Numbered from the whole stretch's first letter, positions 27,437-63,582 are shown. The stretch: DNA of 63,582 nucleotides, filler included, from Octopus bimaculoides (GCF_001194135.2; 6 parts of 6 records of this genome joined end to end with filler, not necessarily neighbours in it); one strand, 5' to 3'. The notes: generated by a model not told the origin, from the sequence alone. Numbers and translations are program-made.

Positions 27437-27614
27437 ACACACAAAACTATACAAAAATATATAAATATTCATATATCCATATCATCATCATTTAGCATTT
27501 ACTGTCCATGCTGGCAGGGGTTACCTGTTTGACTGAAGCTGTTAAGCTGGTGAGTTGTACCAGGTTCCACTCATATATACATGCATGCACACATATACAC
27601 ATATGTATATTTAT

Positions 27615-46539: not shown

Positions 46540-47040
46540 TTCAAATGCGACAGTCAAAAAAATATATTTTGAAAGCCAAAACATTTTACTCAAACGGCAT
46601 TTTGTCGGTTGACATTTTAAATTTTGTGGCATGCTTGCAGGAATTTAAGAGCTCGTGTCTCTGGTTCAAAGCGTTTTTATCCTGGAACAGGATGAAAAAC
46701 TTTTCTGTGAGGCAAAGATTACATTTCATAGGTCTTTTATGAGCTTCATTTCTGTATGCCGATGCTTTTTCTAGAGTTTTCCAGATTACATCGAAAGGAC
46801 AGGTGTCATTCTCTTTCAATTCCCAGACGTGCTTTGCGAGATTAGTCGCTGTCCTGTTCTCAGGGTTATTGGAAAGAACTTCGGTGGGAATAGAATTGTG
46901 TCTTGAATAAATTTTCTGAAGCCCCTGTATATGTTTTATATTCTTGCGAGCTATCTATTTGTACTTTGGCTCTATAAACAATACCTTTTTCAAGACATTT
47001 TCCTTCCAACAAATAGCATATATACGATGGGTTTCTCTCA
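46540..47040 (-). mobile_element. Penelope-like element GIY-YIG endonuclease domain (one frameshift)
   Basis: LEGKCLEKGIVYRAKV...KTYTGASENLFK...H then TATNLAKHVWELKE...VIWK...KCNLCLTEK...LNQRHELLNSCKHATKF. Confidence 0.9.
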
Positions 47041-47420: not shown

Positions 47421-47916
47421 ACCGTACTATTTATAGTTTCCTTTATTTGAGTTTTAGAGTTTAAATCAAATTACCTACGCATATATCCACGTGTGAATAT
47501 AAATATCAGATTCCTTTAGCTACCATCTTGCACCTTTGTGAAGGTAACACCTGTAAGACATCTAACGAAGTGGCTCTCATTTGGCATTGGTTTTTCTATA
47601 ACCTCTATTTCTTACCAGCTGATGGCGCTTTCTGTCTTTTGTGTTGAAAGTACTTTGAGATGCAATGCCTTCTCAATTTGAAGAAAGTCACACATTCAAG
47701 ATGTATACGTTCAGATTTATTTGTTTTGCTTTATGCATGCATTCTCATGCATAGTGTTGTATATCTAGACTTGTTCATATATACTTGACTTTGTAAATGA
47801 ACAATCTGGTGTGTTTATTTTAATGGCCTACCAATGCATACAGTGAGTTTCTTTGCCCTAGGAGTCGAGAAGACACAAGGCAAAAAAATGGAAGCAAGAC
47901 TGAAAGAATAATAATG

Positions 47917-47947
<31 letters not shown>

Positions 47948-47959
47948 TGATCATAATAA

Positions 47960-48194
47960 TCCTTTCTACTGGAAGCACAAGGCTTCAAATTTGGGGGAAG
48001 GGATTAAGTCGATTAGATCGACCCCCAGTACTCAACTGGTACTTAATTTATCGACCCCGAAAGGATGAAAGGCAAAATCGACCTCGGCGGAATTTGAACT
48101 CAGAACGTAACAGCAGATGAAATGCCACTAAGCATTTTGCCCGGTGTGCTAACAATTCTGCCAGCTCACCATCGTAGTAATGATAATAATAATG

Positions 48195-48231
<37 letters not shown>

Positions 48232-48420
48232 TGATAATTCTTTCTACTAAAGACACATGGTGTGGAATTTTTGAGGAAAGGTCTGTTTGTTTACATCGAA
48301 CCCCTTGAGTTCAGCGGATACTTATTTCAGTGACCCCTAAAGAATGTGCGGCAAAGTTAACCTTGAGGATCAAAGAACTCAGAGCATTAAAAGTTAGAAC
48401 AAAAAGCTGATTGACAATTG
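47960..48420 (-). mobile_element. Two SINE family A copies separated by (AAT)n
   Basis: Consensus body 47960-48175; degenerate copy 48240-48420. Confidence 0.85.
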
Positions 48421-48676: not shown

Positions 48677-48684
48677 TATAAAAG
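48677..48684 (+). promoter_or_regulatory. TATA box (TATAAAAG) of the secreted-protein gene
   Basis: gcgcTATAAAAGgc, with an Inr-like CCAGT about 33 nt downstream (48709-48713) and a donor AAG|GTAGGC at 48813/14. Confidence 0.6.
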
Positions 48685-48710
48685 GCTAAGTGGGCTGGTT
48701 TTTATTTGCC

Positions 48711-48813
48711 AGTGTGTAGCTGTCTTCTATCTATCTCCTACCTTGTGTGTCGGTGTGAAACGGGTTCAATTTTCGTTTGAGCTACTCCCAGGAACTTTTT
48801 CTCAAAAAAAAAG
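48711..48813 (+). other. Predicted non-coding exon 1 (5' UTR) of the secreted-protein gene
   Basis: Starts at the Inr-like A downstream of the TATA box, ends at AAG|GTAGGC, contains no ATG; the next exon starts with an acceptor upstream of its ATG. Confidence 0.5.
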
Positions 48814-49130
48814 GTAGGCAAAGAGTTCTATTTACCCCCCACCCCACCCGGGCCCCACACCNNNNNNNNNNTCTCTCTCCTGTTCTTTCTTCCCTCTTTC
48901 TCCTCTCCCCTTTCGCTTTCTCCCACTCTTCTTTTTCTATCTGGTCTCTTGTTATCTTATGGTCCCTATTTTCAGTTTATTTTTATGTTTTTTTTTATGT
49001 TTAGTTCCCCGCCTCCACTTTTTAGCCCCTTTTCTTATCCCTTTTTTTGCTTTTTTATTTGCACATGCATACAAGTACTTGTTCATACACACACACGTAG
49101 ACACATTCGGATGTATGTACATCTGTCCCT

Positions 49131-49215
<85 letters not shown>

Positions 49216-49595
49216 TATATATATACATACTCACACACATATACACAGACATACAAACACACACACACACACACATATACATGTGTATAAATATATATTT
49301 ATATTTAATCAAATTTCTTTTGGTTTTTTTAAATAGCATTTTTATAACAACATTAATAATAGCCATTGTATCACAAAAGCTTCGATTTAAAAAAGTAGGT
49401 TTATTCAGTCAGAAAATATTTTTATATTCTCTTAAAGAAAAGTAAAATATTTTCTCTGCTTTTCATAAAAATAATTTCAACTGTCTGCATATTAATTAGC
49501 AACAGCAAGTCATAACGAAATCAAAACGAAGATATACATAGATACATACACATCCATTCTGATATATTATATATATATATATATATCTGCATACA

Positions 49596-49661
<66 letters not shown>

Positions 49662-50072
49662 CACCTACATAGATATATACATATATGTATGTGTATATGT
49701 ACTTATATATCTGTATATACCTATATATGTGTGTGTGTGTGTTTGCTGTATAAATTAAGGGTAACCCACTTTTTACCCCCATCCATACGTGACACTCAAT
49801 CATGAGAGTGCCGTGCAAGAACTAGCATGCCGCATCATTAGATATTTCACCGGTCTAGAATTCTAGAATTGGAAGAAATTTAGAAACAAAACAGATTTGA
49901 AGATTTTAGTTAATTTCCAAGTGTATATATATATATATATATGCATGTAAGAGTACGCATGTAAACAATAAGAGTGCATACACACGCACACACACATACA
50001 TATGTATGTATATGTATATATATATATATATGTATATCATTATCTTTTTTTCAATTTTTCAGACCTGAAAAA

Positions 50073-50109
50073 ATGTTTTTGCAGTTGCTATTGTTTGCTC
50101 TTGTAGCAG
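50073..50109 (+). CDS. First coding exon (exon 50063-50109): signal peptide N-part MFLQLLLFALVA, phase-1 end
   Basis: Strong acceptor tctttttttcaatttttcag|, A-rich Kozak aaaaATG, hydrophobic 12-mer, perfect donor CAG|GTAAGT. Confidence 0.8.
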
Positions 50110-50157
50110 GTAAGTAAATTATTGTTGTTTGGTCCAAGTGGTTTGTTTGCTGCTCAA

Positions 50158-50193
<36 letters not shown>

Positions 50194-50409
50194 ACTTCTG
50201 TTCATAAGAACACACATTACACAAAATATCTATTAATAATTATGTATTTTGTGCTTTGCATCCGCTGATCACCATAAATCACTTTTACATATGCTCATTG
50301 GTATGTTGCTAATATTGTATATAGACATGTCTATGTATATATACATGCATGTATGTATGAATATATGTATGTACATATCATGTATTATATGTGGATAAGC
50401 ACATACATA

Positions 50410-50625
50410 TACTCTTTTACTTGTTTCAGTCATTTGACTGCGGCCATGCTGGGGCACCACCTTTTAGTCGAGCAAATCGACCCCAGGACTTATTCTTTGT
50501 AAGCCTTGTACTTATTCTATCGGTCTCTTTTTGCCGAACCGCTAAGTTACACGGACATAAACACACCAGCCTTGGTTGTCAAGCGAAGTTGGCGGGACAA
50601 ACACAGACACACAAACATATACANN
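50410..50625 (-). mobile_element. SINE family B tail (intron of the secreted-protein gene; similar tail at 44945-45060)
   Basis: cttttacttgtttcagtcatttgactgcggccatgctgg...gaaccgctaagttac. Confidence 0.9.
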
Positions 50626-50873
50626 NNNNNNNNNNNNNNNNNNNNNNNNNNNNNNNNNNNNNNNNNNTTAATTAATTAANNNNNNNNNNNNNNNNNNNNN
50701 NNNNNNNNNNNNNNNNNNNNNNNCACACACACATGTACGCACACACACACACACATCCATTCAGATGCACAACATGAACACCTACACGGTCTAATTAAGT
50801 CTTAAAATTGGTCTAGCTTTAAAAGCGAGCTAACCTTGTTGTCCGTAAAAGATAGGGCAATATTGTGTGTGTA

Positions 50874-50916
<43 letters not shown>

Positions 50917-51360
50917 TCGCACACACACACATTCACACACACACACACACGTGTGTACTGGAAGCAAACTGATAAACAAACAAATAAACAAACAAAACCA
51001 CAAGAAAACCAAAGCCAGCCTTAACACATTGCCAGATTTCTGAAGCCGACACTTGAAATGTATGGTGTGGCGGACAGAAGATCGTAGTAGAGACTATAGG
51101 GGGTGTTTTACATCAGATTTCTTTTTCCCTTGGTAATTTCTCCACCCATCCCCCACGTATAATACCTATATTTCCAACGCCCTTATATTTACGTGTGTGC
51201 GTGAGTGTGAGCGATATAACATTGGTGCGTATGTGTAATTCTTGTATGTGCTTAATTGACAAGGAAAAAGCTTTTGGGTTCCTATCCGACATTTATTCAG
51301 TTCTTTTATTTATTATTTATTATTATTATTTTTGTTTTTGCTTTTGTTTTTTTGTATTAG

Positions 51361-51473
51361 CGGCATCTGGGGAGCAAAGGCTATCGGAGAGTTGTCTGTT
51401 AGTTAGTCACGCCAGACATTTCAATGGTGCCTGCTCTCAACTGGCTGGGACATTTCGTCGGCGAGTTAGTTGG
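51361..51473 (+). CDS. Second coding exon: (A)ASG|EQRLSESCLLVSHARHFNGACSQLAGTFRRRVSW, end of signal peptide and start of Cys-containing mature region
   Basis: Long T-tract acceptor ...ttttgtattag|, perfect donor TGG|GTAAGT; only the phase-1 frame is open, matching the upstream exon, and it completes an A-S-G signal peptidase site. Confidence 0.8.
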
Positions 51474-51737
51474 GTAAGTGGTATTGTGGTCCGCCTCTTG
51501 GATTCGTTTTGGTGGTTTGGTGTGGTTTGGTTTAACGCAACGTGATGGTAGTTGTGGGTGGATATGATTTATAAAAGGAATAATTTTTATTGTTAATCTT
51601 ATTGTTGGTGGTGTTGTTGGTGTTATTATTTTTATCATCATCATCATTATTATTATTATCATTATTATTATTATCATTATTATTATTATTATCATCATCA
51701 TTATTGTTGTTGTTGTTGTTGTTGTTGTTCTTGTTAA

Positions 51738-52870
51738 GGCGGCGAGCTGGCAGAATCGTTAGCACGCCTGGCGAAATGCTTAGCGGTATTTCGTCTGCCG
51801 TTACGTTCTGAGTTCAAATTCCGCCGAGGTCGACTTTGCCTTTCATCCTTTCGGGGTCGATAAATTAAGTACCAGTTACGCACTGGGGTCGATGTAATCA
51901 ACTTAATCCGTTCGTCTGTTCTTGTTTGTTCCCTCTATGTTTAGCCCCTTGTGGGCAATAACGAAATAGGTATTTCGTCTGTCTTTACGTTCTGGGTTCA
52001 AATACCGCCGAGGTCGACTTTGCCTTTCATCCTTCCGGGTTCGATAAATTAAGTACCAGTGAAAGACTACTCCCCTCTCCCCACATTCGAGGCCTTGTAC
52101 CTCCAGTAGAAGGGGTTCTTCTTCTTCTTCTTCTTCTTCTTCTTCTTCTTCTTCTTCTTCTTCTTCTTCTTCTTCTTCTTCTTCTTCTTCTTCTTCTTCT
52201 TCTTCTTCTTCTTCTTCTTGTTACAGTGGCGAGGTGGCATGCCAGGCGAAATGCTTAGCTGTATTTCCTCTGCTGCAACGTTCGGAGTTCAAATTCCGCC
52301 GAGGTCAACTTTCCCTTTCATCCTTTCGGGGTCGATGAATTAAGTACCAGTGAAACGCTGGGGCCGACGAAACCGACTATCTCCCTCCTCAAAATTTCAG
52401 GCCTTGTATCTATAGAAGAAAGGATTATTGTTGCTGTTGTTCTCGTTCTTGTTGTTGTTAAGGCGGCGAGCTGGCAGAATCGTTAGCACGCCAGGCTTAG
52501 CGGTCTTTCGTCTGTCGCTGCATTCTGAGTTCAAACTTCGCCGAAGTCAACTTTTCCCCTCATCCTTTCAGGTTCGATGAAATAAGTACCAGTTACGTAT
52601 TGGGGTCGATGTAATCTACTAACCCTCATCCCCACAAATTCCAGACCTTGTGCCGATAGTAGAAAGGATTATTGTTGTTGTTGTTTGTGTTGTTAAGGCG
52701 GCGAGCGGGCAGAAACGTTAGCATGCTGAGTGAAATGCTTAACGGTATTTCGTCCATCTTCACGTTCAGAGTTCAAATCCCGTCGAGGTAGACTTGGCCA
52801 GTCATCCTTTCGGGGTCGATAACATGAGTACCAGTAGAGCAGTGGAGTCGATGTAATCGAGTAATCCCCT
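51738..52870 (+). mobile_element. Head-to-tail array of five SINE family A copies with (TTG)n/(TTC)n spacers
   Basis: Copies at about 51738, 51968, 52225, 52462 and 52697; (TTC)n at 52107-52218. Confidence 0.95.
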
Positions 52871-53955
52871 ACGTACAACGGCTTTCGTTTCTTCGTGCTT
52901 TAGAACTCGCGATTTTTATCGGATGATATGATATTTGTATTTCACCACTTTTAATTTGCTCGCTGCCTCTTCGTTTAAACTATTCTTCTCTGTTGTTCCT
53001 TCTTTGTTAAACCATATGGATTCGGTAATCACAGTCTTTAGAGAGCTCACAAATCGTTCTTGACGTTCACACCTCTAAGCTACCACCTAACCAATTAGTT
53101 AATGCGGTAATGCCCGCGAGGGACAAGAAGTTCAACTTCCATTGTGTTCTGTTTGGGTCAACCATATAGATGACAAATTTACCATTTGTGTCGTGGATTG
53201 AACTGTGAATACCTTACATTATTATTGTCCATTAATCTAACAAATACCCAAATTAAATCGATTTTGGATGGTTTGGTGTGGTTGCTTTATATTTATACTT
53301 GTGAATTTACGAAATCCTTTCTGTATCCATTAGAGGGTTGCAACTGACAGAGAAAGTTCGTGAAACTTTTACACCATCCTTTCCTATCGGCTGGCCCTAC
53401 ACAATCCAAGCGTACGCCGAAAATGTCAATTCACTCTCTGATTAACACTGCCTTCTACCATAGCTGTCATATTTTTAAAAGAGGCATATTTTTATAAGAG
53501 ACACTGTATACTGTGCCGAAGCATACACACACATATGTATATATACATACACACACATATGTATATTTATATGTATATATAAACATATAGAATAAGAAAT
53601 TTTAGTGGAAATAATACTTCATGTATACATATATATATATATGTGTGTGTGTGTGTGTATGTGCGTGTGTGTGTGTGTACGTGTGTGTTTGTATGTGAGT
53701 TCATATATATTTGTGCAGCTCAAATGATGATTGTCTATTCCCACCGAGTTTACATACATAATACAAACATACATGCACGCACACACACACACACGCACAC
53801 AGAAAGAAGTATAGCGCACAATAAAACATTGTTATTGTATTGGTGTGGTACATGTGGTGTGTTTCCTTGTATGTGTGTTACGTATGTATGCATATGTTTA
53901 CGTAAATATACGTATATTTGCGTGGGTGCGTGCGTGTTTGTGTGTGTATGTGTGA

Positions 53956-53992
<37 letters not shown>

Positions 53993-55269
53993 AAGTATTA
54001 TTTTGCTTCTATTGTCCTGTATCGCTAAACACGACAGCTTGTTACTGATAACGAGTACACGAGTACATGTGAGTACATGTGTTTTTACAACCTCAGCGTC
54101 TATCAGCGCAGACATGTTTAGGCTGGCCTGTCCAGCGCATTGTCTACATCATCGCCACCACGACCACCACCGCCTCCCAACGCCCCTATTACTACAACTA
54201 CGACGACGGTGACGAACCAAAACCACCGCCACTGCCACCACCATAACCACCACTACCACGTCGCCACTAACACCGCCGCCGCCACCNNNNNNNNNNNNNN
54301 NNNNNNNNNNNNNNNNNNNNNNNNNNNNNNNNNNNNNNNNNNNNNNNNNNNNNNNNNNNNNNNNNNNNNNNNNNNNNNNNNNNNNNNNNNNNNNNNNNNN
54401 NNNNNNNNNNNNNNNNNNNNNNNNNNNNNNNNNNNNNNNNNNNNNNNNNNNNNNNNNNNNNNNNNNNNNNNNNNNNNNNNNNNNNNNNNNNNNNNNNNNN
54501 NNNNNNNNNNNNNNNNNNNNNNNNNNNNNNNNNNNNNNNNNNNNNNNNNNNNNNNNNNNNNNNNNNNNNNNNNNNNNNNNNNNNNNNNNNNNNNNNNNNN
54601 NNNNNNNNNNNNNNNNNNNNNNNNNNNNNNNNNNNNNNNNNNNNNNNNNNNNNNNNNNNNNNNNNNNNNNNNNNNNNNNNNNNNNNNNNNNNNNNNNNNN
54701 NNNNNNNNNNNNNNNNNNNNNNNNNNNNNNNNNNNNNNNNNNNNNNNNNNNNNNNNNNNNNNNNNNNNNNNNNNNNNNNNNNNNNNNNNNNNNNNNNNNN
54801 NNNNNNNNNNNNNNNNNNNNNNNNNNNNNNNNNNNNNNNNNNCTCCTGGTGGTAGTCATATGAGCAGTGAATAAGCAGCGGCAGTTGTGTAGATGGTGGA
54901 AGTGCCGGTGGAGTAATGCGGCTGCAGTGGCGGAGGCGACGGCAGTGGTGGTGGTCCTCTTGGTAGACAAGGTATGGGTGGTCATGATGGTGGAAGAGGT
55001 GTTGATGGTAGGTGTGGTAGCGGTGTTGATAGTTGCAATGGTCGATGGCTGCTGTGGCCTGTTGTGGTTTTAAGATGGTGGTGGTGGTGGTGATGATGGC
55101 GGTTGTGGTTGTGATGGTGGACGTTGCGTTGGTGGTTATAGAGTGGTAGTAGCGGACGGACGCTTTGGTGACGAGCGGCCATAACACTAATGGCGATCGT
55201 GGATAAGTTGTTATTGCTTGCCGTGGTAGTTTTGCAAGGTTGCAGAAGCATCAATCGATGACAATTTAA

Positions 55270-55465
55270 AATCAACAAGACCCGGAAGGGGAAGGCTTTC
55301 GCTTAAGGAAACATATGACACGTTGCAGAAAAATCCGAAAGGATGCTGCAAGAAAGCAAGGAATCAAATGGAAAGAAGCACGAAAAAAGTGCTCAGAGTC
55401 TAGAACAGAGAAGAAAAGTCATCAGCGACGGCCTATGATCCATAAGAAGCGAAGGGCTTAAGTAA
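55270..55465 (+). mobile_element. RTE-clade LINE 3' fragment (degenerate)
   Basis: Remnants of GR.R.TW.R, W.EARK.AQ.R..W and a ...GLK*-TAAGTAAATAAG ending. Confidence 0.5.
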
Positions 55466-55489
55466 ATAAGAGCCTTTAAAAAAAATGCT

Positions 55490-55726
55490 CCCTTTTAAAG
55501 CCTTGCCAGGCTCATTGGCCCGGTTTCCCGGTTTCAATGGCGTATGTGACACCCAGCTGAACGCCAGTCCATCGCAGCGTTACTCATTTTTAACAGCTGA
55601 GTGAACTGGAGCAACGTGAAATGAAGTGTTTTGCTCAAGAACGCAACGCGTCGCCCGGTCCAGGAATCGAAACCACAATCTTACGATCATAGTGCTGACA
55701 CCCTAACCACTAAGCCACGCGCCTCC
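55490..55726 (-). mobile_element. tRNA-derived SINE with V-SINE-like central motif (degenerate relatives at about 1770-1850 and 3320-3450)
   Basis: Minus strand ggaggcgcgtggcttagtggttagggtg...ggtttcgattcc (A/B boxes), ttgagcaaaacacttc, gctgcgatggactggcgt. Confidence 0.8.
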
Positions 55727-56024
55727 ACAAATAAGGGCAATAAGGCAGCTTATTACCCAGAAACAGCATCAGCAATGCAAAGCTATTGAAGCAATTCATT
55801 GTGAGCTTGTTTCCTCCAGAGACACTGAAGTTGTTAAGCTTGCTGATGATATCGAGGACTCGCCTGATAATGACTCGGTCTCTTCTCTGTTCTATCAGAC
55901 CTCTACGGGTTGGCAGCAAGGGCTAGTAGAACATCGCAGTCCTACTAGCTCAAAGTGAAATGTCATTCCGTGTACGTGTCTTACCCCAACCTTAATACAT
56001 ATCGTTAACACACATAGCGAAGAC

Positions 56025-56640
56025 CTCAGTAAAATGTAAGCACGACAAACCTAATATAATGATTTGGGATAGAGAAGGGAAACTCTGCACAGTTGTGGAA
56101 ATTAGCTGCCCAGCGGATGTTAACATAGAGCTGAAGATTACTGAAAAAGAGAACACTCATTCTGAACTATTTAGAAATCTACAGTTGCTCTATCCAGATT
56201 ACAAGTTCCGGTTTATACCTATAATTATTGGTGCCCTGGGATGTGTAACACACTGCCTAAATACCACTCTTGAGTAATTAGGCTTTTCAGAACCAGAAAG
56301 GAGAAAGCTAATTCGAAGACTACAGCTCCAACCCATCACTGGAACTGTAAAAATTTGTAAAACTTTCCAGAAGTTTATCATTTAAATACATATGAGCATG
56401 TCTAGATATGCAACTATATGCATGAGAATACACGCATAAAAGCATACATACATACATTCATACATACATATATACGTACATACATACATACAAACAAAAT
56501 ACCCTGTTGTTGATGTTGAAATTCCAATGAAGGAACCGCAGATCTTCGTTAGAAAACGATTCTTTCTCAATTGGCAAGAAATCTTGAAATAAACTGGATA
56601 ATGACATACATACATACATACATACATACATACATACATA
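56025..56640 (+). mobile_element. R4/Dong-like LINE 3' end: REL endonuclease plus 3' UTR and (TACA)n tail
   Basis: HDKPNIMIWD...VVEISCPAD.N...EKE, IPIIIGALG, one internal stop, ends KTFQKFII*. Confidence 0.85.
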
Positions 56641-56906
56641 CAATATTGAACATCACAGCCTCTCCTTCATTAAAATCGCTAGATTCCAATGCATATCAAT
56701 ATTATAATATTAATTTAATCCACATTTTAAAATGAGTTATACAAGGGGAAAGGCAGGTAAATTTTTCGCTGGACAAGACCCAATGACGTATATATATGCA
56801 TAAATATATATACATGCGTGTATGTATACATGTAAATATATATTTATGTGCATATATATATATACATACATTATATATTTATATATATATTCAATATATA
56901 TACGTA

Positions 56907-56939
<33 letters not shown>

Positions 56940-57066
56940 CACATGAGTGTATGTTAGTCTGTATGTGCGTGTGTTAGTCTGCGTGTGTGCGTGTGCGTGT
57001 ATGTATAAGTGTCTGTGTGTCTGTGTGTGTATTTGTATATGAACGTGTTTGTGTGCTTCTCTGTAG

Positions 57067-57087
57067 GTGTGTCAAAAATCGAAAGAG
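57067..57087 (+). CDS. Candidate 21-nt micro-exon (VCQKSKE), phase 0-0
   Basis: Acceptor tttgtgtgcttctctgtag|, donor GAG|GTAAAT; phase compatible with exon 51361-51473; other exons could lie in N gaps. Confidence 0.4.
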
Positions 57088-57379
57088 GTAAATAAACTCT
57101 TAAGAATCATTCTTAAGGAACGATAAGCGCTAATCTCATTAATCCGCGGGATTAAAATTGGAAATGTTTCAGACACTCTGTGATAACTTATCTCGAGTAA
57201 AAGACGGCACGTGGCTGATTAAAATATCTTAATAACAGAAACAAAAATATCTTTTTTCGTTTCGAAAATATGTTTTTTTATTATATTATATTATATTTCA
57301 TTATTTTTTTTGCATATTTATTTTATTAATTTTAATGATTATTACTATGAACCCTTATTATTCTTCAACGTATCCATGT

Positions 57380-58040
57380 CTTATCTTGTTGTTGTTAGTG
57401 ATGCTGATGATGATGGTCGTGGTAGTAGTGGTGATGACGGTGGTATTGTGGTATAGCTGTTGTTGTTTGTTGTTGTTTGTCGTAGTTGAGGTGCTGTAGG
57501 TGGTTTTGATGATGATGATGATGTTATTGTTGCTGTTGTTGATGATGATGATGATGATTTTGATAAAGATGGTATCAGTGGTTATGCTAAGACTGATGGT
57601 GGTGGTGGTAGTGGTGGTAATATAGGTCGTCGTGGTGTACGTGGTAGTGGTGGTAGTCGCAGTGGAAGTGATGTACATGATAGAAAAGCTAATGATGCTG
57701 GCAGTGCTTGTGGAGATGTTGATGATAATGATTATGATGATAATGGCAGTGGTGGTGGTGGTGGTGGTGGTGGCGGTGGTGGTGGTGGTGGTCGTCGTCG
57801 TAGTAGTAGTGGCTGTATAGGTTTCGGTGGTGTTAGTGATGTGGTCATGATTGTGAAGAGGGTGATGATGACGACATCGACAACAAGGTCGACAACCAAG
57901 ATTATAATGACGATGGTGATGGTAATGGTACTGATAGCCATGTTGATGATGATGAGAATGATAAATGTTGTTGTTGTTGATGATGATGATGATGATGAGG
58001 AGGAGGAGGAGGAGGATAATGACGACGACGACGATGCTAT
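57380..58040. repeat. Degenerate triplet low-complexity field (GTG/GAT/GTT/GAC); similar fields at 54140-55250 and 62990-63200
   Basis: Direct reading; no coherent ORF. Confidence 0.85.
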
Positions 58041-58311
58041 GTTTAAGAGCAGGTTAATGAACCCTTGTATGCAAATATGGTAGAGTGTTTGCCGATAAAG
58101 CTTTTGATAACAATCTATATACCAGGCTGTTTATGCACACAAAGACATTTACATATATGCGTATGCATAAATTATTTCCATATCTGTATAATTCTCGGCG
58201 CTTCTGTAAAAAACAAACTTTGTTTACATATATCATAATTTGAATTTCACAAACAACAACAATAAAAAGCTAAATTTGTAAGTTCAAAAATTGCAGAAAA
58301 ATTTGTCAGTG

Positions 58312-58383
58312 GACAGTTTAGCTTAATGGTAAAGCACTTGACCGGTAATCACAGAGATGTAAGTTCGAGTCTCATGGCTGGCC
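58312..58383 (+). pseudogene. tRNA-Thr-like sequence (anticodon GGT), degenerate
   Basis: D-arm GCTT-AATGGTA-AAGC perfect; anticodon arm CTTGA-CCGGTAA-TCA(C)AG with a 1-nt bulge; T-loop TTCGAGT; mismatches in acceptor and T stems. Confidence 0.65.
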
Positions 58384-58519
58384 GCTGACAAATTTCAGCA
58401 TTATTCTGTGTTTGAGAATAAATTTACTTCCATATCTGTATATATATGTGTATGTCGTGGAATTATAAATCTGTTCTATGCAAAAGATTTACTCCTTGAC
58501 AGAATAATATGAACAAAGA

Positions 58520-58860
58520 AAGCGCTTCAAGAACACATTCAATGCTTCACTGAAGAGTTTTGAGATCAACCTCGACATCTGGGCAACTCAGTCACAAGAC
58601 CGTACTGCCAGGCTAAGATACACCAACTGAGTAACCGTCTAGTACAGACAGAACAGGATTGCAGGGGCACTACGGAAACGCGAACTACACAAGGCCAAAT
58701 CCAGTCCGTGTTTTCAGTCTCAAATGACCACCAGTTCTTGACTTGCGGAGGAGCCTTCTGACTATGCATCGGACTGATTGACCGTAGCCGGATACACCCG
58801 TTCACCATCTTCTTCTTCGAGGTGATGCTCTTGGTCAGCGTTAACCACGACGGATAAACT
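58520..58860 (+). mobile_element. RTE-BovB-like LINE 3' end
   Basis: KRFKNTFNASLKSFEINLDIW..Q.QDR, ALRKRELHKAK, terminal C.GAF..CIGLI...RIH zinc-knuckle remnant. Confidence 0.8.
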
Positions 58861-60210
58861 AATGATAAGGTTTGATAGTAAGAAACAAATGACATGGTTG
58901 AGGTAACCACAAAATCTTTTTTTGATCAAGTTGTCAGTTTTAGGATAAGAGGATACGTTGTAAAATCTGATTACACTGCATGGGAAAAGCAAAAAAATGT
59001 TTACGGATTTCATCATAACTCTACTGGATCGCATTTGGCCGTGAGGTTAATAATTCTCAAGTAACAAGGGGGAAAGATAACTTTTGTTAGTTCTCACTTA
59101 AGTTTTGTAAATATACATAAAAGTAACCTGTTAATGCATTCGTATCTATACAGATATATACATACACACATAAGCACAAACACAGACTCCTATATGAATG
59201 TATATTATGTATATATGTACCGTCATCTGGTCGAGCTCTCTCGGACGTTTTTAATTCGCACGCGCCATCCACCTCGGTCCGGCTTTAGTTGAGGAGCGTC
59301 TTCGTGGGGTGTGGGGAGGGCATGCAGTGTCTCTGTTGAGCTGATCTACATACGTTGTGTTCGGGCGATAACTTCAAGTACGGCGGCCATGCTTATAAAT
59401 ATATATGCAAATGCACACATGTAGACACACACACACACATACATACATTTACATATATACCAACATACATATATACATACATACATGCATATATACATGT
59501 ATATATATATATATATATATATNNNNNNNNNNNNNNNNNNNNNNNNNNNNNNNNNNNNNNNNNNNNTTAATTAATTAANNNNNNNNNNNNNNNNNNNNNN
59601 NNNNNNNNNNNNNNNNNNNNNNTGTGTGTGTGTGTGTGTGTGTATGTGTGTGTGTGTGTGCGTGTGTGTATGTGTGTATAATTTTTTGATCTCTTGTCAT
59701 TTATTTCATTTCTGATATCTTTCTCCCTTCTTTCTCTCTCTTTCGCTCTCTCTATACACACACACACACACACACACATATATATGCATACATTATATAT
59801 GTATGTGTATGTATGTGTATGTATGCCTATATATATATATATATATATATATATAGCACTGTGTGTCTTGGTCTTTGCTTCTCTTTCTCTTTCCCTCCAT
59901 CGCATTGTGTCTCTCTGTCTTTCTCTTTATTTAACTCCTTTACTCTCTCTTTCCCTGTTTCTCTCCCTTCTATTCCTCCATCTATCTCTCTTTCACGCTT
60001 CCCTCTCACTCTCCCTCCCCTCCCTCTCTCTCTCGCTTTCTATCTTTCATTTCCACAAAGAGCTTCCTTGGCTGCAATGGCTAAGCTCTGCGATAATTGG
60101 GCAGGGCAGACATTTGGATGCATGGACGGATGTCGGAATGTATGGATGACTAAATGAATGGACGGATGGTTTAGATGGAGAGACGAATGGTTGACTGGCT
60201 GGCTGGCTAG

Positions 60211-60241
<31 letters not shown>

Positions 60242-60284
60242 GCTGGGTATAAGAATGCATGTATGGATAGATATATCTTGTACC

Positions 60285-60625
60285 TTTTACTTGTTTCAGT
60301 CATTAGACTGCGGCCATGCTGGAGTACAGCCTCGAAGTTTCCTTTTTTTTTTTGTCGAACAAATCAATATTAGGATTTATTATTTCTTAAGCCTAGTACT
60401 TATTCTATCGGTCCGTTTTGTCAAATCGCTGAACTACGGGGAGGCAAACACACCAACACCGGTTCTCAAGTGGTGGTGGAAGACAAACAGACAGAAAGAC
60501 ACACACATACAGGAGTGGTTGTGTGGTAAGTATCTTGCTTACCAGCCACATGATTGCGGGTTCAGTCCTACTGCGTGGAACCTTGGGCAAGTGTCTTCTC
60601 CTATAGCCTTGGGCCGACCAAAGCA
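60285..60625. mobile_element. SINE family B tail (-) abutting a family B head (+); another head (-) at 62211-62340
   Basis: cttttacttgtttcagtcattagactgcggcc... then ggagtggttgtgtggtaagta...ttgggccgaccaaagc. Confidence 0.85.
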
Positions 60626-60659
60626 ACTGTGATAATTTTAGGAGTGACGAGTGACGAGT

Positions 60660-60990
60660 AACGATGTCCATGTCATGCAATCTCACCTGATTCAACAGGG
60701 GCTTAAAGTCAATTGATGTGCTGGGGACATTTGCTTAATCCTGGATGGATGAAGTACGCAATAGAAAACTGTACATGCTTCATCATGACTCAGCAACTTC
60801 GCACAAACCCAGAGTAACTCCAAGAACGAATGCTTGAAAATCTTTACTATCATGTAACACCAAATGTATGTTCTTTAAGCACATCAAATTTAAATCCCAT
60901 CGACTTCTACGTATGGGGTGTTGTTGGAGAGAGTGAGACTAATCGAATCCTCTCAATACACTACTATAGGTTCCGTGAAGGCCGCCATTG
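60660..60990 (+). mobile_element. Tc1/mariner maT (DD37D)-like transposase fragment, degenerate
   Basis: Remnants of HVM..HL.QQGLKVN, PWMDEVRN.K.YMLHHDSA.SHK, NPIDFYVWGVV..ETN. Confidence 0.75.
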
Positions 60991-60994
60991 GATG

Positions 60995-61507
60995 AAGGGA
61001 TGATTATGGAATGTTTATTATTTTGATATTTAGATATTTTTAATAATTTTTCTATCTTTATAATATAAGTATTTCATATAAATTCATTTGGTACTTATTG
61101 TTGGTTGATATATATATTATTTATTATAATTATTGTTCTATTTACGACCTGACGATTAGCTGTATTTTTGAATAGAATTTATTTTCTATAATTTTAATTG
61201 ATTTTAATCGATTTAAATTTCCTTTCTATTTGAAAATTAGTTATGAAACACGTGTAGTCATTTTATTATCTTTATCTTATGATATTTACTTTGTTTTATA
61301 TTATACTCATTTATTGTGCTTTTAATTATTAATTTTTCTATATGTGATAGCGGATTTTCATCGATGAGTTCTTGAAACTTGGTTATTTTCCCTAAAACTA
61401 TATATTTTATATATATTTTAATCTATAAAACTCAATTTAATTTTAATTTTTTATAAATTGATTTTAATTGAGTTTTTACCTGTAATTTTGGATTTTGTCC
61501 CTAATAT

Positions 61508-61510
<3 letters not shown>
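60995..61510 (+). mobile_element. AT-rich Penelope-like terminal-repeat remnant
   Basis: Internal diverged direct repeats (ttaattgattttaat), ctgacgattagc and cgatgagttcttgaaac core-like motifs. Confidence 0.35.
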
Positions 61511-61550
<40 letters not shown>

Positions 61551-61987
61551 TACTTATATAAGTATATGTACATATTCACGTGCGTATATACTTACATACA
61601 TACATAACTATATATATACATTTTTGTATATATTGTATGTAATATGATATACATATATATATATATATATATATAATGATGTAAATATGTATATATATGA
61701 TATTATAAAAATTTGCATGTATGATTATGTATGTATACATTTGTGTGCATGTACGCATGTATGTGAGTATGCGTGTATGTGTGTATGTATGGACATGAAA
61801 GTTTTTTCGGTGGGTAAATGCAAACGGTGAAGGAGAAAGTCGATGATAGAAGCCCGGCGTGGTGATGGGAAGGAAAAGTGCCACAAAGGACGAAGCTGGA
61901 CAACAAGGAAGTGGACAAACCATTTTATGTAAGAACTCTACTGTTGCTGCGCTATTAAAAATCCTTAGGTATGTGTGTGCATGTGTA

Positions 61988-62049
<62 letters not shown>

Positions 62050-63582
62050 AGAGACAGAGAGAGAGTAAGAGTGAAAAAGCTGGGTGAGTAGCGAATAATG
62101 AGAGTGGATANNNNNNNNNNNNNNNNNNNNNNNNNNNNNNNNNNNNNNNNNNNNTTAATTAATTAANNNNNNNNNNNNNNNNNNNNNNNNNNNNNNNNNN
62201 NNNNNNNNNNTACCAAATCCACTCACAAGGCTTTGGTCGGCCCGAAGCTATAATAGAAGAAACTTGCTCGAGGTGCCACACAATAGGACAGAACCCGGAA
62301 CCATGTCGTTGGAAAGCAAGCTACTTACCACACAGCCACGACGAATATATATCTAACACTGTATTATTTTAATTACAAATTACTACGAACATTCGATCAT
62401 AATTCTTTGTGTGTGTGAGCGTGTGTGTGTGTGTGTGTGTGTNNNNNNNNNNNNNNNNNNNNNNNNNNNNNNNNNNNNNNNNNNNNNNNNNNNNNNNNNN
62501 NNNNNNNNNNNNNNNNNNNNNNNNNNNNNNNNNNNNNNNNNNNNNNNNNNNNNNNNNNNNNNNNNNNNNNNNNNNNNNNNNNNNNNNNNNNNNNNNNNNN
62601 NNNNNNNNNNNNNNNNNNNNNNNNNNNNNNNNNNNNNNNAGTCACCTGGCAAAGACTTCATCGCTGACGACAACACACACACACACACAGGTATCACACA
62701 CTACCTGCGTAGTTACTAACTTAGGTAGGCTGTGTGATAAGATACACAGGCAGGTACTCGCAGGTAGACAGACAGGTATATAGATAACGGGAGAGGTTTG
62801 TTGTTCTACTTCTGCCCAGTCAGGTCTCGGGGTACAAGATGTAGGTAGGTTTGTAGGTAGGTAGGTAGGTAGGTAGACAGGTAGGGCAGATAAGGGACGT
62901 TTACATAATGTAAACACCACGAAAACATAACGGCAATAACAAAAGAGGAACAATGAATAAACAAGTAAATAAATAAGTGAATGGAAAAATAGGGTCTTCA
63001 CCACCACCACCACCACCACCACCGACATCATCATTACCACCATTACTATCACAACCACCCCCCACCTCCACCCCCACAATATGAAAACAAGCCAGACGTC
63101 TGTTGATAGAGATATTCTTCCTTGACTTTCTTCAAGTATTTTCATAATGATTAGTAGAATGGTAAGTACCATATTTGTTTTGCAGTGGCACCGTTGTTGT
63201 TGTTGTATCAACAGTGACATCTAACCACACCGCGCCTGTCCTCCCCCAACTTTAAACTAATAATTCTAACTTCCTCTCGCTCTCTCTCTCTCTCTCTCNN
63301 NNNNNNNNNNNNNNNNNNNNNNNNNNNNNNNNNNNNNNNNNNNNNNNNNNNNNNNNNNNNNNNNNNNNNNNNNNNNNNNNNNNNNNNNNNNNNNNNNNNN
63401 NNNNNNNNNNNNNNNNNNNNNNNNNNNNNNNNNNNNNNNNNNNNNNNNNNNNNNNNGGATGGACGGATGGATAGATAGATCAACAGATAGGTGCCCAGAA
63501 ATAAAGACAGACACACAGGCAATCTTACAGACAAAGGCACTGACAGACAGAGGGATTGACAGGCACACACACACACACACAC

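What the first reader, a model, noticed from the sequence alone, without database searches (positions are those of the whole stretch)
48677..57087. Unannotated multi-exon gene for a small secreted Cys-containing protein or prepropeptide, missed by the ORF track
Seen: TATA box, Inr-like site, non-coding exon, then two exons with near-consensus splice sites whose phases match (37 nt phase 1; 113 nt with only that frame open). Spliced reading: MFLQLLLFALVAAASG/EQRLSESCLLVSHARHFNGACSQLAGTFRRRVSW. The hydrophobic core and A-S-G ending form a textbook signal peptide split across the intron. The tribasic RRR could be a convertase site releasing a 28-aa peptide with a C-x12-C loop. I do not recognise the protein, so it may be lineage-specific. 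TATA-driven, CpG-retaining context fits a tissue-specific gene.
Basis: partly seen in the sequence, partly recalled or inferred. Interest (0 to 1): 0.8.

Follow-up and report, generated by a model that had tools for sequence, protein, structure and literature searches.

The report
Hidden, divergent octopus insulin-like gene
Four small exons in octopus DNA spell the front half of a predicted secreted protein that matched no database protein here and is likely an insulin-like hormone with an unusually lengthened B chain; its second half lies outside the window and expression is not shown.

Summary
That reading matches the three-cysteine B chain of molluscan insulin-related peptides: G two before the second Cys, S-Q-L-A-x-T, V-S-x-V-C. 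A post hoc score was reached by 2 of 20,000 shuffles. It breaks one near-invariant rule: 14 residues between B7 and B19, against 11 in 40 of 40 published chains counted, explained by loss of Gly-B8 plus a four-residue insertion carrying RRR. No A chain is in the window, no true homologue was found, and four laid runs held no read on exon 3 (uninformative). Verdict: a likely real, apparently unannotated gene; most likely a divergent insulin-like hormone precursor (about 0.62), not filed as a family member. The stand-alone C-x12-C loop peptide and the CpG argument are not supported.

The parts
48677..48684 (+). TATA box (TATAAAAG)
   Evidence: one of 11 TATAAAA[AG] matches on the + strand, the only one flanked by two G/C before and G after; promoter role inferred
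48704..48813 (+). Exon 1, predicted non-coding (start uncertain, about 48704-48713)
   Evidence: Donor rank 22 of 7,195; no ATG in the leader; unique sequence
50063..50109 (+). Exon 2: ATG at 50073, first 12 residues of the predicted signal peptide, ends phase 1
   Evidence: Best of 1,206 candidate exons, donor rank 1 of 7,195
51361..51473 (+). Exon 3: end of signal peptide and most of the B-chain-like segment (Cys24, Cys37, RRR at 45-47), phase 1 to 0
51465..51470 (+). Weak in-frame alternative donor (after 51464); would shorten the Cys37-Cys52 spacing to 11 but drops V-S-W
   Evidence: 3.3 bits against 9.2 for the main donor; B-chain score 12.6 against 17.4; use not shown
57067..57087 (+). 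Exon 4: 21-nt micro-exon, phase 0/0, adds Cys52 (B19-like)
   Evidence: Top of 18 phase-0 stop-free candidates downstream of exon 3 and the only one of 45 acceptors that starts aliphatic-Cys; the only candidate tested that completes the motif
57088..63582 (+). Intron 4 running to the window's end; the predicted C-peptide and A-chain exons are not in the window (531 N inside)
   Evidence: No A-chain pattern other than repeat-derived poly-Cys runs; no convincing next exon

Best explanation
This is likely the 5' half of a gene for a divergent molluscan-type insulin-related peptide: four exons give a predicted signal peptide and a three-cysteine segment that reads like an insulin B chain. Shown: exon coordinates, phases, an open frame, Cys at 24, 37, 52, and the motif match. 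Inferred mechanism: a TATA promoter drives tissue-restricted transcription; the signal peptide, predicted to be cut after Gly16, sends the precursor into the secretory pathway; exons beyond the window would supply a C-peptide and a five-Cys A chain; Cys24, 37 and 52 would each bond to the A chain (four disulfides in all, as in MIP-type peptides), not to each other. The hormone would act through the single molluscan insulin receptor kinase on growth, feeding or gonad maturation, but Gly-B8 is lost and four residues (F-R-R-R) are inserted into the central helix, so affinity or receptor choice may differ.
For: PMC5996578 (passage) gives the molluscan B chain as C-x(9-14)-C-x11-C; the first interval (12) fits. 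Hand tally of 40 lophotrochozoan chains shown in three parts of the PMC6425005 supplement: G two before B7 in 22, S at B9 in 10, Q at B10 in 11, L/I/M at B11 in 39, A/S/P at B12 in 24, T at B14 in 8, L/I/V at B15 in 33, S at B16 in 13, V/I/L/M at B18 in 34; the reading shows every one once Gly-B8 is removed and four residues are inserted. Non-Gly B8 occurs in 9 of 40, including an O. bimaculoides peptide. Score 17.4 bits: reached by 2 of 20,000 residue shuffles, 15 of 20,000 with Cys fixed, 0 of 1,264 six-frame stretches of the window; eight other downstream exons give at most 8.3. Exon 4 was picked by splice strength alone yet supplies the missing V-C. A phase-1 intron near the start occurs in some IGF genes (PMC8286064 passage).
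Against: B7-B19 spacing is 14, against 11 in 40 of 40 chains counted. The score was built after I had guessed the family and from classes tallied by eye (values in the script differ from the final tally by up to 3 of 40), so its p-values are optimistic. No A chain, C-peptide or dibasic exit site is in the window. Pfam gave no family for exon 3 alone; PDB, Atlas and fold searches gave nothing usable. Two phase-0 introns at the end of the B chain and a micro-exon are not the usual layout, which has a phase-1 intron in the C domain; a clam ILP has three exons. A single-sequence AlphaFold model of exon 3 is one long helix without the B-chain turn. The hydrophobic moment of residues 40-52 is ordinary (8,339 of 20,000 shuffles).
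Confidence: 0.62

Rival explanations
1. A real secreted protein of another kind, for instance one of the helical, Cys-spaced secreted proteins common in molluscs; the insulin likeness is chance.
For: Spacing of 14 breaks a rule kept by 40 of 40 chains; unusual intron layout; all-helical model; unrelated molluscan secreted proteins with widely spaced Cys appear in the PMC6425005 supplement (passages).
Against: Nine flanking positions match the B-chain tally; 15 of 20,000 Cys-fixed shuffles reach the score; no family hit for any alternative.
Confidence: 0.2
2. A decayed or silent copy, or exon-like sequence that is never spliced together.
For: No matching protein although octopus models are in the collection; lesions in a conserved helix could mean relaxed selection; no orthologue in hand.
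Against: Intact TATA, four strong splice pairs in order, matching phases, open frame and a clean signal peptide; neural peptide genes are often missed by annotation (14 of 63 in scallop, PMC5996578 passage).
Confidence: 0.09
3. One reading: a convertase cuts at RRR and frees a 28-residue peptide closed by a Cys24-Cys37 disulfide.
For: Signal peptide, RRR at 45-47 and two Cys in exon 3 are really there.
Against: A third Cys follows in exon 4; Val after the basic run is unfavourable (recalled); short motifs of the peptide were not found in the paper library.
Confidence: 0.06
4. The N-terminus of a Wnt or another large secreted ligand whose annotated model lacks its first exons.
For: The residues around Cys37 and Cys52 resemble the start of some Wnt proteins (recalled, from no call).
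Against: The recalled Wnt pattern with G-L and Q is absent; no hit in the protein searches.
Confidence: 0.03

Closest known systems
Molluscan insulin-related peptides with four disulfides (MIP type; Lottia Lotgi1169325 and Lotgi1232734, Patinopecten ISNL1-3, Sepiella SjILP)
   Same: Signal peptide followed within a few residues by three Cys; first interval 12; C-x-L after the first Cys; G two before B7; S-Q-L-A-x-T and V-S-x-V-C.
   Different: B7-B19 spacing 14, not 11; no Gly at B8; RRR inside the helix; end of B chain on a 21-nt exon; A chain not seen.
Known octopus insulin-like peptides (Ocbimv22011416; O. vulgaris 18638; Ov-Mirp3; XP_014782891.1 and XP_014772597.1 named in PMC9221753)
   Same: Same animal group and three-Cys B chain; Ocbimv22011416 also lacks Gly-B8.
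   Different: The two sequences seen are C-x14-C-x11-C and share no stretch with this reading; the Ov-Mirp3 primers do not match the window, which would not exclude exons beyond it; the two XP records could not be viewed.
Gonadulins and echinoderm multinsulins
   Same: Highly divergent insulin-like peptides that are hard to find in genomes; multinsulin genes have four coding exons.
   Different: Described from arthropods and echinoderms; their intron phases differ; no sequence comparison was made.

Membership tests
Molluscan insulin-related peptides (MIP type) | N-terminal signal peptide | tested here: met
   Nine-residue hydropathy 2.3-3.1 for windows starting at residues 1-7, negative from 11; SignalP not run
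Molluscan insulin-related peptides (MIP type) | Extra B-chain Cys 9-14 residues before B7 | tested here: met
   Cys24-x12-Cys37 against the motif in PMC5996578
Molluscan insulin-related peptides (MIP type) | Eleven residues between B7 and B19 | tested here: not met
   14 with the main donor; 11 in 40 of 40 chains counted by hand. A weak donor gives 11 but scores lower
Molluscan insulin-related peptides (MIP type) | Hydrophobic B11, B15, B18 of the central helix | tested here: inconclusive
   All three present only with one deletion and a four-residue insertion
Molluscan insulin-related peptides (MIP type) | A chain C-x-C-C-x3-C-x8-C | not testable with these tools
   Not in the window; no genome held
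Molluscan insulin-related peptides (MIP type) | C-peptide between dibasic sites; phase-1 intron in the C domain | not testable with these tools
   The reading ends five residues after Cys52; later exons are missing
Insulin family, Pfam profile | Match to a Pfam insulin-family model | tested here: inconclusive
   No family for exon 3 alone, 37 aa, lacking B19 and the A chain; the spliced reading was not scanned
dilp7 orthologues (invertebrate relaxins) | Strongly conserved A and B chains, easily found across protostomes | tested here: not met
   No true homologue among 1.84 billion representatives
Wnt ligands | N-terminal pattern with G-L and Q before the Cys (recalled) | tested here: not met
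   Pattern absent

The most novel reading that the evidence does not exclude
An octopus insulin with a cut site built into its receptor-binding helix: the F-R-R-R insertion is cleaved to give a three-chain hormone, or switches the hormone on or off, and two splice donors nine bases apart toggle between a 14- and an 11-residue helix.
Probability: 0.1. Interest if true: 0.78.

Novelty: new variant of a known kind. Interest (0 to 1): 0.45.

Why it matters
Insulin signalling is implicated in octopus feeding, maturation and post-brooding decline, but its actions are described as unknown (10.1101/340984 passages) and only a few cephalopod ligands are listed (PMC9221753). An extra, unannotated ligand would change that inventory and give a gene to test in existing brain, optic-gland and gut data. 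A working B chain with a four-residue insertion would also be a natural test of how rigid the insulin fold and its receptor contact are. If the insulin reading fails, what remains is an ordinary unannotated secreted-protein gene.

Tried and rejected
Own genome: none held. Protein searches with a 40-aa window frame over exon 3: lengths 71-2000, 9 candidates, none at E<=1; lengths 22-70, no candidate; 1.84 billion representatives, 4 hits, of which three (P0001, P0002, P0004) are tandem-repeat sequences on inspection and one a 2,266-aa Ig-repeat protein, all rejected. Pfam none; PDB best E 0.46; Atlas no usable hit; Foldseek none. Metagenome contigs: 596 pattern matches, none confirmed. No paralogue of exon 3 in the window (best other E 1.4). 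Motif searches: 0 papers for three motifs; no matching protein in the PMC6425005 supplements, but files 2 and 3 are cut when stored, so octopus entries may be unseen; none in the PMC7357564 supplements; the data table of PMC6321970 and clionin sequences could not be seen, so clionin was not tested. Venom-insulin idea: a cephalopod venom-gland survey that included chordate insulin models lists no insulin mimic (10.64898/2026.02.02.703354 passages; its supplements are closed); dropped. Earlier scan notes: nothing for this genome or sequence; one insect ILP note without bearing.

Full report
Setting. The window is AT-rich, full of microsatellites and has 5,216 N. An intronic fragment at 55996-56274 is 80% identical over about half its length to a predicted Octopus vulgaris protein, so the DNA is octopus-like; the species was not determined and no genome is held.

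Observation. With simple splice matrices of my own, the exon-2 donor is the best of 7,195 GT sites and exon 2 the best of 1,206 candidate exons; exons 4 and 3 rank 23 and 36. Among 64 unique, stop-free candidates the three coding exons rank 1, 7 and 3, and none of the four exons lies in an interspersed repeat. They are collinear and phase-compatible, giving 57 stop-free codons. The N-terminus is hydrophobic as a signal peptide should be; the cut after Gly16 is inferred from the usual small-residue rule (recalled). The CpG argument fails: 0.55 and 0.78 against 0.69 for the window.

The missing piece. The finding ends at 57087 but its reading stops at 51473. The 21-nt exon 57067-57087 is the top of 18 phase-0, stop-free candidates downstream of exon 3 (18.2; the runner-up at 18.0 lies in a repeat) and the only one of 45 downstream acceptors that opens with an aliphatic residue and Cys; 6 of 587 do so window-wide. 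It makes the pattern Cys24-x12-Cys37-x14-Cys52. Its use is predicted, not shown.

What it resembles. Molluscan insulin-related peptides have a three-Cys B chain, C-x(9-14)-C-x11-C (PMC5996578, passages; SjILP has Cys48, 63, 75, PMC9221753, parts 1-2 of 5 read). I read three parts of supplement 3 of PMC6425005 and tallied by hand the 40 lophotrochozoan chains with both B7 and B19; one chain lacking B7 and one fragment were left out, and other chains lie in parts not read. The reading shows the common residue or class at B5, B9, B10, B11, B12, B14, B15, B16 and B18 if Gly-B8 is dropped and four residues (F-R-R-R by eye) are inserted between B12 and B15. A crude log-odds score with gap penalties gives 17.4 bits: reached by 2 of 20,000 shuffles, 15 of 20,000 with Cys fixed and 0 of 1,264 six-frame stretches; eight alternative downstream exons give at most 8.3. 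A regular expression gave 0 of 200,000. Both tests were designed after the guess and the expression was widened to admit this sequence, so they support but do not prove.

What speaks against. All 40 chains have 11 residues between B7 and B19; this has 14. A weak donor nine bases upstream would give 11 but removes V-S-W and scores lower (3.3 against 9.2 bits as a donor, 12.6 against 17.4 as a B chain). Insulin-type genes carry a phase-1 intron in the C domain (PMC8286064, passages); here two phase-0 introns cut the end of the B chain, and the C domain is unseen. No A chain is in the window. Pfam, PDB, Atlas and fold searches on exon 3 alone gave nothing usable, the single-sequence model is one helix (mean pLDDT 76.9) and the segment's hydrophobic moment is ordinary. 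I therefore say it likely works like a MIP-type precursor but do not file it in the family.

Is it annotated? No true relative of the exon-3 frame came up at lengths 22-2000 or among 1.84 billion representatives, while O. vulgaris models are in the first collection. A near-identical annotated protein should have been found; a distant orthologue could be missed with 40 residues. The two octopus insulin-like sequences I saw are different genes; two RefSeq records named in PMC9221753 could not be viewed. Three motifs found 0 papers; supplements cut or closed may hide a match.

Expression. Not shown. No RNA holder was on record and four laid runs had nothing on exon 3; this is no evidence either way.

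Mechanism. Shown: gene layout, frame, Cys pattern, motif match. Inferred: secretion; an A chain encoded further 3'; three interchain disulfides from Cys24, 37, 52; action on the single molluscan insulin receptor (one receptor in a clam, PMC13198591 passages) in growth, feeding or maturation, as proposed for relatives. Confidence 0.62; other secreted protein 0.20; silent or chance 0.09; loop peptide 0.06; Wnt-like 0.03.

Papers seen: PMC9221753 parts 1-2; PMC6321970 part 1; passages of PMC5996578, PMC6425005, PMC13198591, PMC8286064, PMC7357564, PMC5736919, 10.1101/340984, PMC8557429, PMC8398477, 10.64898/2026.02.02.703354, PMC13311285, PMC12965858; supplement parts or searches for PMC6425005, PMC6321970, PMC7357564, PMC8398477; other titles only as search listings.

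Verdict. A likely real, apparently unannotated octopus gene, most likely a divergent insulin-like hormone precursor; a new variant of a known kind; interest 0.45, limited by the unseen A chain and the lack of transcript evidence.

Noticed in passing
window 58312-58383 (+): tRNA-like element in intron 4: Rfam RF00005 at 35.3 bits (gathering 29), not called by ARAGORN; probably a tRNA-derived repeat or pseudogene.
   Followed up: partly
window 48713-48813 (+): Exon 1 also has an acceptor-like site at 48713 and is open in frame with the ATG of exon 2, with no ATG of its own; an upstream exon could lengthen the N-terminus.
   Followed up: partly
window 51670-52870: Cluster of an interspersed repeat (up to 19-20 matches elsewhere in the window; roughly 242-nt period) in intron 3; another copy at 47904-48361 just upstream of the promoter.
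   Followed up: no
window 55700-56390 (+): Broken reading that resembles the end of a LINE-type retroelement (label recalled; no Pfam family); relatives include a predicted O. vulgaris protein.
   Followed up: partly
window 46586-46954 (-): 122-aa frame resembling a Penelope-type GIY-YIG endonuclease remnant (label recalled; no Pfam family).
   Followed up: partly
window 50668-50679, and similar near 59570 and 62160: The same 12-nt palindromic spacer between runs of N recurs; likely an assembly linker, not biological sequence.
   Followed up: no
window 27518-27549 (+): A unique, stop-free 32-nt candidate exon with strong sites, second of 64, with no evident partners; probably chance.
   Followed up: no
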